IMG/VR virus record: IMGVR_UViG_2563366976_000008
Coordinates: 1-11,953 of that record
Direction: 5' to 3' (one strand)
Length of the DNA: 11,953 nt
Source of the DNA: a virus
Lineage: Duplodnaviria; Heunggongvirae; Uroviricota; Caudoviricetes
Below, piece after piece: positions 6,001 to 9,000 of this stretch. Numbering within the stretch: the stretch's first letter is position 1; each line of letters starts with the position of its first letter. Position numbers: made by a program.

Positions 6001-9000
6001 CCCTGCGGTCAGTGCTGCTTCTTCGTTATAAGTAAAAATCACGTTGCTCATGCGGCGTTTTCCTTAATTTGATGAACATTATTGATGCCGTAGTAATCAC
6101 AAACAGTGGCATCGACGAAAGAGAGATCGTTATCAATCTCATTGGAATCAAACATTCCCATTGGGGATTTGACAGTGTCTGCACCGTTGTTTTTCGTGGT
6201 GAAAAAGAACTGGTCATCGCGGGTAAGAGTGCGAAGAACTATAGTAAACATGCCTTCGACAGTGATTTTCTCGTCCAGCATTTTGCCGATAGTTTTCATT
6301 TTCACGCGCCCCATAGGGGTTTCTTCGGTATGTGCAAGAAAATAGACTCTCAGGTCATCAGGTGCATCCTGTGCAGCCTTAATCACCTCCCATGCGTGGC
6401 GGCCTATCTCAGTAAATTTATCAAACGATTTTTCTTCTGAGCGGCGCATAAACTCATTGCTCATCACATACTGGAAGTCATCAACAATAACGATTCTTTT
6501 CCCGTATTCGTGAGCACGCTTAATTACGGCAACTATTACGTCCCATTTGTCAGTGGTAACTACGGTTCCTTTTTTTGCTCTGGCATCCCATGCCAGCCAG
6601 TCTTTTGATTTAAATGGTAGCGGCTTGCCTATTGGTTTTATAAGTATTGCTTCCTCTGGATTGATATTTCTCATGCTGGTTGATTTTCCGGTGCCAGATT
6701 CACCGAGTATTAATGTCGCAGTTCCCATAATTTGCCTCAGAATGGTAATTCGGATGGGGAGGAAAGAAACTCACGCTCATTCATGCGCTCTCTTTGCGCC
6801 TGCCATAAACAAAGTTGTTTCTTTGATTTATCTCCCGCTTTACGCCAGTAACGAGCCTCAGCAATGTGATATTCTCTTTTTAATCGACTTAACTCTGGAG
6901 TTTTCGCCAGTTCTACCGGAATCATTTTGACCTCCATTTTCTGTAGGCTTCTACGGCTTCACGAAACATCTTTTCATCGCCAATAAAAGTGGCGATAGTG
7001 AATTTAGTCTGGATAGCCATAAGTGTTTTATCCATTTTTGGGAACTCCTGGCTGATTAAGTATGTCGATAAGGCGTTTCCATCCATCACGTAATTTACGT
7101 GTGATTCGTTCAAGTAAAGATTCGGAAGGGCAGCCAGCAACAGGCCACCCTGCAATGGCATATTGCATGGTGTGCTCCTTATTTATACATAACGAAAACG
7201 CCTCGAGTGAAGCGTTATTGGTATGCATATAAAAAAGCCCTCACACTGGAGGGCAAAGAAGATTTCCAATAATCAGAACAAGTCGGCTCCTGTTTAGTTA
7301 CGAGCGACATTGCTCCGTGTATTCACTCGTTGGAATGAATACACAGTGCTTATTCGCAGCCTACATAATCATTCCGGTTATTATTACCATTTCAATATCA
7401 CTATCTTTCATAATGATTGGAGTTGAGTTATCAACTTTACTTTTACTCCATTTTCCTGCATCAGTTTTTACCGCTCCACAATAAGAAAGCCAATCATCAT
7501 CACAATGTTCTGGATCACTAATTCTGACAAGAACACGTGATAGTGCTTTTTCGATACTTTCATCACAATTAGCATTTGTGTAATTGCCGTGAGACAATTT
7601 CAAATCGTTAACTTCATCTTCATTGGCATCAAAAATATAGATTTCAGTCGACTCTGGAACATTTTCATAAACCATTAAAACTTTCATTTTTACCCCATAT
7701 TGTTTATGCCAAAAATAAAGGTCGGCTATGCGGCCTGAAATTACTTAATCAATGATGCTGCATATTCGATAAGGTAAAGTTTTGGGGCCAGCCAAATTTT
7801 TAACCAAGTCATATTGGTTACTGCACCAATAATAAAAATCCCCCACAGAGTCAAAACTCCAACCAATGGCACGATAAGAAGATTAATATCACCTTTGCTA
7901 TCCCAAACCATTGTCGGCCTGTATTTGGGATTTCCTTTCTCCCATGAATATCCTTCATCACCGATTTTACCTGTCTCAACTCTTTGGCACTGCTTCTTCA
8001 TAAACCAGAAAACCAGTGGGATTGTTAGAATGGCTATTAATGTTTTAATCAGACTGTCAACCATATTCCATAGCAGCAACTGATGAACAACATCAGGAAT
8101 CTGTGCCTGGCTAAATGAAACAGCCGCGTCTATTCCATTGCTGGCTTTTTGCAGTAGTTCTACGAGAATCTTGTTTGCTTGTTCTTCCATATATCACCTT
8201 AAATAGTGGCTTGCGGTAGTAAAGATTGTGCCTGTCTTTTAACCACATCAGGCTCGGTGGTTCTCGTGTACCCCTACAGCGAGAAATCGGATAAACTCTA
8301 TTCACCCCCTACAGAGAGAATGATGGAGATTCACCGATGAGTAACTGGTGGCAGGAACTATTACGTTTCTTCCTGCGTGGTCTTACGCTACAACAGTTAA
8401 TTCATATGCTTATTATTTTAATTGCCTTGATAATAATCACCCCAGCATCAATTAAAGAGTGGGTAGATATAAGGAACCCAGAAATACTTCCAGATCACTG
8501 GATGTATTACGCGATGCTTTTGTGTATCAGTTATGTTCTGAACAGGGTGATGGAGTTTATATTTCTGGCATCTTCAGACAGATATAAAAAATATCTCAGT
8601 AAGAGAGATGAGGCTAAAGTAATTGTGGAGACTGAGCGCCTGTTCAATTCTCTGAGTATTCAGGAAAAAGAGGTTTTAGCATTTGCTGTTATGGCAAATA
8701 ACAAAATCGTACTTAAGCACGGCGATCCGGTCGCTTTATCTCTTATGAGAAAAGGCCTTCTCCATCGCTCAGGTGTGACTTACAGCGCGTCAGGTAAAGA
8801 GAAATTTGTTATACCTGACGTCTGGTTCCATGAGTGTTATATGCGCTTTGCTGGTAAAGCTGATGAGCTAATTTAGTTCCTCGACGGCGGGGGATCGTCA
8901 TCTCGCCGTCAGTTGTTTTGATTTCCGGTAGCCTGCCGCGTAAAGAGCTACGTTTGGAAGACAAGTTGAACCTTCATATTTTCTGGTCAACGTTGTCAGA

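What the first reader, a model, noticed from the sequence alone, without database searches (positions are those of the whole stretch)
7361..8190. AT-rich two-gene accessory block (acidic 108-aa protein plus 2-TM 149-aa membrane protein) in the ral/ea10 slot
The composition drops sharply relative to neighbouring phage genes, suggesting horizontal acquisition. One product is small, acidic and Cys-containing; the other is a two-helix membrane protein. This pairing, in a known hotspot for exclusion and anti-restriction genes, makes it a candidate superinfection-exclusion, abortive-infection or toxin-immunity pair with no family I can name.
Basis: partly seen in the sequence, partly recalled or inferred. 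Interest (0 to 1): 0.6.

Follow-up and report, generated by a model that had tools for sequence, protein, structure and literature searches.

The report
Two unrelated phage accessory genes
The AT-rich block is real, but it is two independently shuffled single-gene cassettes of a lambda-like prophage rather than a cooperating defence pair: one is a small acidic protein whose predicted fold matches no solved structure, the other a two-helix membrane protein, and both belong to widespread phage families of unknown function.

Summary
ORF108 (7361-7687, minus) and ORF149 (7741-8190, minus) lie between N/sieB and cIII in a lambdoid prophage. The block is 36.9% GC, the window's minimum. ORF108 is acidic (pI 4.4) and ORF149 has two hydrophobic helices.

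The "pair" reading fails. Only 2 of 76 ORF149-bearing viral loci carry ORF108. Only 4 of 18 ORF108-bearing lambdoid loci have an ORF149-family gene upstream; the rest have Ral, N, Nmad5 or other genes. None of 17 distant ORF108 loci has one. DNA comparison shows clean cassette junctions at about 7350 and about 7700-7730.

Both genes match catalogued families of unknown function (PHROG 4658 and 3054), and most relatives are in virulent phages (T4-like, N4-like, phi92-like, Vibrio phages). There is no Pfam, PADLOC, NCBIfam or PDB hit.

Both genes point the same way as pL/N, no promoter was detected, and terminator-like hairpins flank ORF108. I infer delayed-early lytic expression. The best guess is that ORF108 binds and blocks a host or defence factor, and that ORF149 acts at the inner membrane, where an exclusion role is not excluded. 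This is ordinary mosaic biology with one modestly interesting orphan family.

The parts
7361..7687 (-). ORF108: 108-aa soluble acidic protein, PHROG 4658, with a predicted fold that has no solved relative
   Evidence: ORF list. PHROG 4658 match E 2.4e-38 over the full length. pI 4.36. AF2 pLDDT 95.3. No PDB neighbour. 766 family cluster representatives.
7741..8190 (-). ORF149: 149-aa membrane protein with two hydrophobic helices, PHROG 3054
   Evidence: ORF list. PHROG 3054 match E 6.3e-64. Hydropathy. 516 homologues. Phage homologues in P22-like, N4-like, phi92-like and Vibrio phages.
7807..8079 (-). Hypervariable core of ORF149 (TM1, loop, TM2), replaced by unrelated sequence in the 121-aa variant while both gene ends stay 94-98% identical
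   Evidence: blastn break points against L006 and L017. Protein alignment. Per-region conservation 0.91/0.92 at the termini against 0.47-0.66 in the core.
7711..7736 (-). Cassette junction between ORF149 and ORF108: a GC hairpin plus T-run. It is terminator-like in relatives and weakened here by two substitutions.
   Evidence: Upstream sequences of 18 loci. Fold energies are -9.7 and -13.9 kcal/mol for the two alleles in relatives, against -3.7 kcal/mol in the window. Similarity to Ral-, Nmad5- and other-bearing loci ends at 7721-7736.
7312..7349 (-). 14-bp perfect RNA hairpin just after the ORF108 stop codon. It lies in the flank shared with phages that lack ORF108, and the downstream cassette junction is at about 7350.
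   Evidence: Fold -21.7 kcal/mol, z -7.3. An equivalent hairpin made of different sequence is present in L031 (-16.2 kcal/mol, z -5.9). Gally similarity covers 7148-7349.
7237..7254 (-). Intrinsic-terminator-like hairpin with a T-run between ORF108 and cIII, at the position where P22 has an annotated terminator after gene 17
   Evidence: Terminator scan. P22 annotation of a terminator upstream of c3.
8337..8876 (+). Neighbour, not part of the block: the SieB superinfection-exclusion gene on the opposite strand. It is also AT-rich.
   Evidence: Pfam SieB E 3e-20. PHROG 1301 E 3.6e-94. 49% identity to P22 SieB. GC 39.6%.

Best explanation
The block is two independent single-gene mosaic cassettes that happen to sit side by side in the variable N-cIII slot of a lambdoid prophage. 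Both are read in the direction of the pL early-left operon (N, then antisense sieB, ORF149, ORF108, cIII, kil). They are therefore most likely made as delayed-early proteins during lytic growth or induction, not in the quiescent lysogen. ORF108 belongs to a large phage-restricted family (PHROG 4658) of small (85-140 aa), uniformly acidic, stand-alone cytoplasmic proteins whose predicted fold has no solved relative. I infer that it acts stoichiometrically, binding and neutralising a host or resident-prophage factor early in infection (counter-defence or host take-over); the target is unknown. ORF149 belongs to a different widespread phage family (PHROG 3054). Its members are inner-membrane proteins with two helices, a strongly conserved N-terminal 42 residues, a conserved C-terminal amphipathic helix (WLKIWLAPKLYLIEYAASLIK), and a hypervariable hairpin and loop. 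I infer that it works at the inner membrane during the phage's own lytic cycle, and membrane-level exclusion of other phages is one possibility. What is shown: the anatomy, the family membership, the independent distribution and the lack of known homologues. What is inferred: the expression timing and both functions.
For: Independence of the two genes:
- ORF149 occurs without ORF108 in phages Gally and Oslo and in 74 of 76 IMG/VR loci.
- ORF108 sits downstream of Ral, N, Nmad5, an 81/105-aa protein, a 156-aa protein or an ORF149-family gene. Only 4 of 18 loci have the ORF149-family gene.
- None of 17 distant ORF108 loci has an ORF149 relative within 4 kb.
- Relative to Gally, ORF108 is a clean 350-bp indel, with window 7148-7349 joined to 7700-8200.

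Families:
- PHROG 4658 and PHROG 3054 match over the full length of the proteins.
- ORF108 relatives at about 30% identity lie in the early regions of T4-like phages (between ndd and t), in 48-kb Klebsiella phages and in phi92-like phages.
- ORF149 relatives occur in P22-like, N4-like, phi92-like and Vibrio phages and on 46-kb phage-like plasmids.

ORF108 properties:
- The AF2 model has pLDDT 95.3.
- There are 766 cluster representatives at E<=1e-3.
- Across 175 members the median pI is 4.4, the median net charge is -10, and 86% have pI below 5.
- H33, N38 and G105 are invariant; P11, E12 and Y36 are nearly invariant.

Expression:
- Both genes have the same orientation as N, cIII and kil.
- No sigma-70-like site was found upstream of either gene on the minus strand.
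- Relatives carry a hairpin plus T-run only about 25 nt before the ORF108 ATG, which leaves no room for a private promoter.
- Terminator-like elements follow ORF108.
Against: No experiment or homology ties either protein to any function. The promoter scan is insensitive, since it also missed the sieB promoter that must exist in 8191-8336, so prophage-state expression is not excluded. Acidity is common among small phage proteins and does not prove mimicry or inhibition. The invariant E/H/Y/N residues could instead mark a small enzyme or a ligand-binding site. The 121-aa ORF149 variant (orf47) was in a 200-gene accessory-gene screen and is not among the reported hits, which gives no positive support for a role for that family. 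The ORF149 model is poor (pLDDT 66). Its topology is ambiguous by the positive-inside rule: 8 K/R in the loop against 5 in the two termini.
Confidence: 0.55

Rival explanations
1. One reading: ORF108 and ORF149 form one two-component system. The membrane protein would be the effector or toxin and the acidic protein its partner, sensor or immunity factor. The system would be expressed from the prophage to exclude or abort other phages.
For: The two genes are adjacent and co-oriented, 53 bp apart, and both AT-rich. They sit next to sieB in a slot known for exclusion and anti-restriction genes. The same adjacency recurs in a few other prophages, including with the divergent 121-aa variant (L006, L017, L020, L025, L030). 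In this window the hairpin between the two genes is weakened.
Against: Co-occurrence is rare in both directions: 2 of 76, 4 of 18, and 0 of 17 distant loci. A recombination junction lies between the genes. Relatives carry a terminator-like hairpin between them. Each family occurs alone in virulent phages. There is no PADLOC hit.
Confidence: 0.05
2. ORF149 alone is a superinfection-exclusion or immunity protein, functionally like T4 Imm or P22 SieA. It would sit in the inner membrane and block DNA entry or membrane steps of competing phages, and its hypervariable membrane and loop region would reflect an arms race. ORF108 would be unrelated.
For: It is a small two-helix inner-membrane protein. 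Its termini are conserved while the core is hypervariable and recombining. It occupies accessory slots in temperate phages and phage-like plasmids, and is also present in virulent phages, which likewise encode exclusion proteins. It lies beside sieB.
Against: It has no similarity to the SieB or Imm Pfam families or to any other Pfam family. No promoter was found. The orf47 variant has no reported phenotype in the published accessory-gene screens, although those screens were not designed to detect exclusion. The conserved parts are the termini, not the variable loop, so the function may lie on the other side of the membrane.
Confidence: 0.2
3. ORF108 is specifically a DNA-mimic anti-restriction protein, working like Ocr, ArdA or Arn and replacing Ral in this slot.
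For: Acidity is strong and conserved across the family. In some relatives it occupies the position taken by ral, or lies next to it. In T4-like phages it lies in the early ndd-t region, where, from my own knowledge, T4 carries arn.
Against: It has no fold or sequence similarity to Ocr, ArdA, Arn or any other PDB entry. It often co-occurs with Ral rather than replacing it (L019, L021, L027, L055). The conserved core includes H, Y, N and E residues rather than a patterned acidic surface, and the most acidic helices are the least conserved part and are missing in 85-aa members.
Confidence: 0.15
4. ORF108 is a small enzyme or a ligand sponge (for example one that sequesters or cleaves an immune signalling nucleotide) rather than a protein-binding inhibitor.
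For: E12, H33, Y36, N38 and G105 are invariant or nearly invariant polar and glycine positions in an otherwise divergent family. The protein is small and stand-alone and its family is widespread in phages, like known sponges.
Against: No structural similarity was found to any PDB chain, a set that should include the solved sponges and phosphodiesterases (Tad1/2, Acb1/2).
Confidence: 0.12

Closest known systems
PHROG 4658 (uncharacterised phage protein family; members include RB16p265, Morganella phage vB_Mm5 MM5_130 and Klebsiella phage FBKp34 gp130)
   Same: Full-length profile match at E 2.4e-38, with the same length, the same conserved motifs (MKxL, IPE, HGxYxN, TGF) and the same acidity. 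39 of 40 diverse relatives hit the same PHROG.
   Different: The window's lambdoid subtype is only about 30% identical to the copies in virulent phages. No isolate phage in the INPHARED collection carries it at more than 60% identity.
PHROG 3054 (uncharacterised phage membrane protein family), including orf47/UDP0047 (AEW47744.1, Salmonella phage SPN9CC) of the Silas et al. accessory-gene library
   Same: Full-length profile match at E 6.3e-64. Compared with orf47, the N-terminal 34 residues and the C-terminal 20 residues are almost identical, and both have two predicted TM helices.
   Different: The window's form is 149 aa with a loop of about 40 residues, and its core is unrelated to that of the 121-aa form.
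Lambda/P22 early-left accessory genes in the N-cIII slot (ral, P22 gene 17, sieB/esc, lambda ea10)
   Same: Same genomic slot, same orientation as pL, same mosaic cassette behaviour, and terminator-like elements between cassettes.
   Different: No sequence similarity to Ral (no Pfam hit), to P22 gp17 (BLASTP E 0.46) or to SieB. P22 itself carries neither gene.
Acidic phage anti-restriction DNA mimics (T7 Ocr, ArdA, T4 Arn)
   Same: Small, very acidic, encoded in early regions, stand-alone proteins.
   Different: No fold or sequence relationship. No functional test was done.
Small two-TM phage exclusion proteins (T4 Imm, PF14373; SieB, PF14163)
   Same: Size class, two hydrophobic helices, accessory location.
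   Different: No profile match. ORF149 has conserved soluble termini that those proteins lack.

Membership tests
PHROG 4658 (for ORF108) | Significant full-length match to the family profile | tested here: met
   E 2.4e-38, residues 1-108 against profile positions 2-109 of 109. 39 of 40 diverse relatives hit the same PHROG.
PHROG 3054 (for ORF149) | Significant full-length match to the family profile | tested here: met
   E 6.3e-64, residues 1-149 against profile positions 1-137 of 137.
Two-gene defence or toxin-immunity system | The two components co-occur and are co-inherited across genomes | tested here: not met
   2 of 76 ORF149 loci carry ORF108. 4 of 18 ORF108 lambdoid loci and 0 of 17 distant loci carry an ORF149-family gene. 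A mosaic junction lies between the genes.
Known anti-phage defence systems (PADLOC-DB v2) | Match to any defence-protein model | tested here: not met
   No family matched either protein at E<=1.
SieB (PF14163) and Imm (PF14373) superinfection exclusion proteins (for ORF149) | Pfam profile match | tested here: not met
   No Pfam family at E<=0.1 for ORF149 or for 12 diverse relatives. The neighbouring ORF 8337-8876 does match SieB at E 3e-20.
Superinfection exclusion proteins (functional class) | Expression blocks infection by other phages | not testable with these tools
   This needs phage challenge of cells expressing ORF149.
Ral (PF11058) restriction alleviation | Pfam profile match | tested here: not met
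   ORF108 has no Pfam hit. Ral is a separate gene next to ORF108 in L008, L019, L021, L027 and L055.
P22 gene 17 (allows growth on a Fels-2 lysogen) | Sequence similarity to gp17 | tested here: not met
   BLASTP E 0.46 over 6 residues. gp17-like genes co-occur downstream of ORF108 in L007 and L017-L019 and L021.
DNA-mimic anti-restriction proteins (Ocr, ArdA, Arn) | Shared fold with a solved mimic | tested here: not met
DNA-mimic anti-restriction proteins (Ocr, ArdA, Arn) | Strong net negative charge conserved in the family | tested here: met
   Median pI 4.4 and median net charge -10 in 175 members.
Plant-type [2Fe-2S] ferredoxin | Profile score above cut-off and four conserved Cys ligands | tested here: not met
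   TIGR02008 scored 14.4 bits against a cut-off of 81. PDB 7s3d matched at E 0.53. ORF108 has only 3 Cys and none is conserved.
Moron (autonomously expressed prophage gene) | Own promoter and terminator, expressed in the lysogen | tested here: inconclusive
   No sigma-70-like site lies upstream of either gene, and there are only about 25 nt between the T-run and the ORF108 ATG. The scan also missed the sieB promoter, so a negative result is weak.

The most novel reading that the evidence does not exclude
ORF108 is a member of a large (more than 700 sequence clusters), previously unstudied class of phage early proteins whose fold has no solved relative. These proteins would neutralise a host immune system or an essential host factor by a mechanism unrelated to known DNA mimics or nucleotide sponges, and would be used by both virulent (T4-like, phi92-like) and temperate (lambdoid) phages.
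Probability: 0.3. Interest if true: 0.6.

Novelty: new member of a known kind. Interest (0 to 1): 0.33.

Why it matters
As originally framed, as a new two-gene exclusion or Abi module, the finding does not stand, so it should not be carried forward as a defence-system candidate. Two things remain useful. First, it is a well-resolved example of cassette-level, and for ORF149 intragenic, mosaicism in the N-cIII slot of lambdoid phages, with hairpin-marked junctions. Second, it flags PHROG 4658. That family is large, uniformly acidic and phage-restricted, gives a confident predicted fold with no relative in the PDB, and sits in early or accessory regions of both virulent and temperate enterobacterial phages. 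These traits fit an untested counter-defence or host-take-over protein, and the family is cheap to test experimentally.

Tried and rejected
- Ferredoxin lead for ORF108: weak hits only (TIGR02008 E 0.025, PDB 7s3d E 0.53). Rejected because the score is far below cut-off and the Cys residues are not conserved.
- HORMA lead for ORF108 (PDB 6p8o, E 0.9): rejected, because the fold searches gave nothing.
- P22 gene 17 as a homologue in the same slot: rejected. It co-occurs with ORF108 instead.
- Domain fusions that might hint at ORF108 function: the longer family members (P0242, P0221 and others) have no Pfam domain. The single 1346-aa hit (P0303) is a TPR protein and looks spurious.
- Structure search for ORF149: not run, because the model was too poor (pLDDT 66).
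- afdb50 fold library: unavailable.
The single-protein scan found no relative in species-representative genomes.
- Literature: no paper mentions the accessions or PHROG ids. The Silas et al. supplements contain the ORF149 variant orf47 but no ORF108 relative. Two anti-defence papers had no searchable supplements.
- Formal covariation counting on the junction hairpin: abandoned because the two alleles align out of register. Each variant was folded separately instead.
- Profile searches against PDB sequences and Pfam scans of diverse ORF149 members: nothing found.
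Full report
**Setting**

The window is the early-left arm of a mosaic lambda-like prophage. On the minus strand it carries, in order:
- integrase (1-1074) and xis;
- a series of ea/ead-type genes;
- a DUF669/SSB-like gene (5464-6051);
- a Sak4-like ATPase (6048-6728);
- kil (real start about 7035);
- cIII (7028-7168);
- the two ORFs of the finding;
- the antiterminator N (8898-9242);
- a DUF2335 membrane protein (9671-10204);
- a LexA/CI-type repressor (10555-11202).

A SieB gene lies on the plus strand at 8337-8876, and a cro-like gene follows at 11272-11529. 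Rfam finds the lambda cIII thermoregulator at 7123-7181 (88.5 bits). No complete E. coli genome holds more than 53% of the window in one place, as expected for a lambdoid mosaic.

**Check of the observation**

- ORF108 (7361-7687) and ORF149 (7741-8190) are on the minus strand, 53 bp apart.
- The block is 36.9% GC against 45.7% for the window. Only 0.3% of 830-bp windows are as low, and the minimum falls inside the block.
- ORF108 alone is 32.7% GC with GC3 of 22%.
- The low-GC tract continues into sieB (39.6%), so the composition marks the whole variable slot rather than these two genes only.
- ORF108 has pI 4.36 and 3 Cys. ORF149 has two hydrophobic segments.
- The Cys residues of ORF108 are not conserved in homologues, so they carry no weight.

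**Are the two genes a unit? No.**

1. Named phages carry ORF149 without ORF108. Gally has it directly next to the cIII flank. Oslo has it next to a pentapeptide-repeat gene. CUS-3 and HK633 carry divergent forms.
2. E. coli prophages carry a nearly identical ORF108 behind an Nmad5-family gene, behind ral, or behind a 121-aa variant of ORF149.
3. I ran a census of IMG/VR viral contigs.
   - Among 18 lambdoid loci with ORF108 at 96% identity or more, the gene immediately upstream is an ORF149-family gene in 4, Ral in 3, N in 2, an 81/105-aa protein in 4, a 156-aa protein in 2, and Nmad5 or other genes in the rest.
   - None of 17 more distant ORF108 loci has any ORF149 relative within 4 kb.
   - Reciprocally, of 76 ORF149 loci with enough downstream sequence, only 2 carry ORF108.
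4. DNA comparison shows the junctions.
   - Relative to Gally, window 7148-7349 is joined to 7700-8200, so ORF108 is a clean indel of about 350 bp.
   - Similarity to the loci that carry Ral or other upstream genes ends at 7721-7736.

**Fine anatomy of the junctions**

In all relatives, the roughly 50 nt before the ORF108 start hold a GC hairpin followed by TTTATTTTTGG, then the ribosome-binding site and the ATG. Two different stem sequences occur:
- GGCCG...CGGCC, at -9.7 kcal/mol;
- GGCTGCC...GGTGGCC, at -13.9 kcal/mol.

Both are terminator-like. In this window two substitutions weaken the stem to -3.7 kcal/mol.

Only about 25 nt separate the T-run from the ATG, so ORF108 has no room for a promoter of its own downstream of that hairpin.

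Just after the ORF108 stop codon there is a 14-bp perfect hairpin (7312-7349; -21.7 kcal/mol, z -7.3). In L031 an 81%-identical ORF108 is followed by a different sequence that forms an equivalent hairpin between the same flanks. The window's hairpin lies in the flank shared with Gally. A canonical terminator-like hairpin follows at 7237-7254, at the place where P22 has an annotated terminator upstream of c3.

The sigma-70 scan found no site in front of either gene on the minus strand. It also missed the sieB promoter, so this negative result is weak. Taken together, the evidence favours transcription by N-antiterminated read-through from pL, meaning delayed-early expression. This is an inference.

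**ORF108**

- It has no hit in Pfam, PADLOC, NCBIfam (only a sub-threshold ferredoxin score) or PDB sequences. It matches PHROG 4658, of unknown function, over its full length.
- tblastn finds relatives at about 30% identity in 100 isolate phages, all below 60% identity and none lambdoid. They include T4-like Klebsiella, Enterobacter, Cronobacter and Citrobacter phages and RB16, where the gene lies in the early ndd-t region. They also include 48-kb Klebsiella phages and phi92-like phages, where the gene sits inside a Ter gene cluster.
- A profile search of 1.84 billion cluster representatives found 766 proteins at E<=1e-3. Nearly all are stand-alone and 80-140 aa long. 39 of 40 sampled hit PHROG 4658, and none has a Pfam domain of its own.
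- H33, N38 and G105 are invariant. L4, P11, E12 and Y36 are nearly invariant.
- The family is uniformly acidic: median pI 4.4, median net charge -10, and 86% below pI 5 in 175 members.
- AlphaFold2 with 41 sequences gives pLDDT 95.3 and pTM 0.87. The model has a beta-hairpin (2-20), three helices, and a C-terminal strand (100-107).
- It is not related to P22 gp17, which occupies the same slot and in fact often co-occurs just downstream. P22 has neither gene.

**ORF149**

- It has no Pfam, PADLOC, NCBIfam or PDB hit, even for diverse members or a profile. It matches PHROG 3054, of unknown function.
- It has 516 homologues in the large protein database, from Escherichia, Salmonella, E. albertii, Citrobacter, Cronobacter, Shigella, Kluyvera and Pantoea.
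- It matches 178 isolate phages, including P22-like, N4-like (Schitoviridae), phi92-like and many Vibrio phages. Copies at 76% identity lie on 46-kb non-mobilizable E. coli plasmids, between the lysis genes and terminase.
- The N-terminal 42 residues and the C-terminal 22 residues (WLKIWLAPKLYLIEYAASLIK) are strongly conserved, with column identity 0.91-0.92 among close relatives and 0.81-0.86 among distant ones. The two hydrophobic helices and the loop are variable (0.36-0.66).
- In the 121-aa variant, the DNA of both gene ends is 94-98% identical to the window while the core (7807-8079) is unrelated. This is an intragenic mosaic.
- The AlphaFold model is weak (pLDDT 66), so I did not use it for fold search.
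- Topology is uncertain: the loop has 8 K/R and the two termini together have 5.
- The 121-aa variant is orf47 (UDP0047, AEW47744.1) in the 200-gene accessory-gene library of Silas et al. (bioRxiv 10.1101/2023.04.06.535777), where it is listed with 2 TMHMM segments and no annotation. It is not mentioned among the hits in that preprint or in the follow-up paper PMC12373910.

**Interpretation**

What is shown:
- These are two real genes of two different, catalogued but uncharacterised phage families.
- They are shuffled independently and are adjacent here by mosaic chance.

What is inferred:
- *Expression.* Both are most likely made during lytic growth from pL. The basis is their orientation, the flanking terminator-like hairpins, the lack of a detected promoter, and the fact that most relatives are in phages that cannot lysogenise.
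- *ORF108.* It is best read as an early, stoichiometric binder and inhibitor of a host or resident-prophage factor. The basis is that it is small, soluble, consistently acidic, stand-alone, phage-restricted, and neighbours ral and gene 17-type genes. My estimate is about 0.4 for this functional class as a whole. A DNA-mimic version and an enzyme or sponge version are narrower alternatives.
- *ORF149.* It acts at the inner membrane. A T4 Imm-like exclusion role is possible (about 0.2) but has no positive evidence. The family's conserved elements are its soluble or interfacial termini.

**Verdict**

The pair and defence interpretation is not supported. The thing itself is ordinary lambdoid mosaic content. 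The one modestly interesting by-product is PHROG 4658, a large acidic phage family with no solved structural relative that is worth an experimental test.

Noticed in passing
window 7312-7349 (minus strand); L031 about 4340-4375: There is a 14-bp perfect RNA hairpin (-21.7 kcal/mol, z -7.3) just downstream of ORF108. In L031 a different sequence forms an equivalent hairpin between the same flanks (AAGCAC...GAGCAAT), which looks like wholesale compensatory replacement. No U-run follows it and its function is unknown; it could be a processing or stability element upstream of cIII.
   Followed up: partly
window 7711-7736 (minus strand); L017-L033 and L053, about 3960-3990: Every ORF108 cassette is preceded by a GC hairpin plus TTTATTTTTGG, with two alternative stem sequences that both fold well (-9.7 and -13.9 kcal/mol). 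In this window two substitutions degrade the stem to -3.7 kcal/mol. Several alternative upstream genes (ral, the 81/105-aa gene, Nmad5) end inside the hairpin with ...AA-stop, so the hairpin is the recombination boundary.
   Followed up: partly
window 7807-8079 inside ORF149: ORF149 is an intragenic mosaic. Both ends of the gene are 94-98% identical at DNA level to the 121-aa variant (L006, L017), while the central 273 bp (both TM helices and the loop) is replaced by 189 bp of unrelated sequence.
   Followed up: yes
window 7123-7181 (minus strand): Rfam finds the Lambda_thermo cIII thermoregulator element (RF01804) at 88.5 bits, full length. The ORF listing reports a 79-aa 'kil' ORF (6922-7161) and a 66-aa cIII ORF (7028-7228) that overlap. 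The real proteins start at M44 (Kil, 37 aa) and at MQYAIAG (cIII).
   Followed up: partly
window 8337-8876 (plus strand) and 8883-8910: This is a true SieB gene (Pfam E 3e-20, 49% identical to P22 SieB) on the strand opposite to pL. A strong terminator-like hairpin (10 bp, 7 GC) overlaps the 3' end of N. The pL transcript must run antisense through sieB to reach ORF149.
   Followed up: partly
window 9671-10367 (minus strand): A second accessory block sits in the rexAB position between N and the repressor. It holds a DUF2335 membrane protein (177 aa; PHROG 3996, moron category) and a 73-aa ORF (PHROG 26284) whose reading frame overlaps it by 59 bp. The composition dips to about 39% GC at 10200-10650. 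The DUF2335 gene is also found next to a LexA-family repressor gene in E. coli MS 21-1 (L008).
   Followed up: no
window 5464-6728 (minus strand): The recombination module is a Sak4-like ATPase (PHROG 2872, E 4e-108) plus a DUF669/SSB-like protein (PHROG 743), instead of lambda Red or P22 Erf.
   Followed up: no
L011 1501-1833 and L054 5001-5336: In phi92-like (Stephanstirmvirinae) phages the ORF108 homologue is embedded in a tellurite-resistance-like gene cluster (TerC, TelA, vWA-TerF-like, TerD), immediately upstream of the vWA-TerF-like gene. It was seen in two related genomes.
   Followed up: no
L056 4001-4450 (E. coli plasmid pEC21Z144-46K): ORF149 homologues at 76% identity lie on 46-48-kb non-mobilizable E. 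coli and E. albertii plasmids that encode terminase, portal and lysis genes, so they are probably phage-plasmids. There the gene sits between the lysis cassette and the small terminase, which is a different accessory slot from the lambdoid one.
   Followed up: partly
L007 2605-2916; L017-L019 and L021, about 4472-4784: A P22 gene 17-like gene (87-88% identical; annotated in P22 as allowing growth on a Fels-2 lysogen) frequently lies directly downstream of ORF108 in other prophages. It is absent from this window.
   Followed up: no
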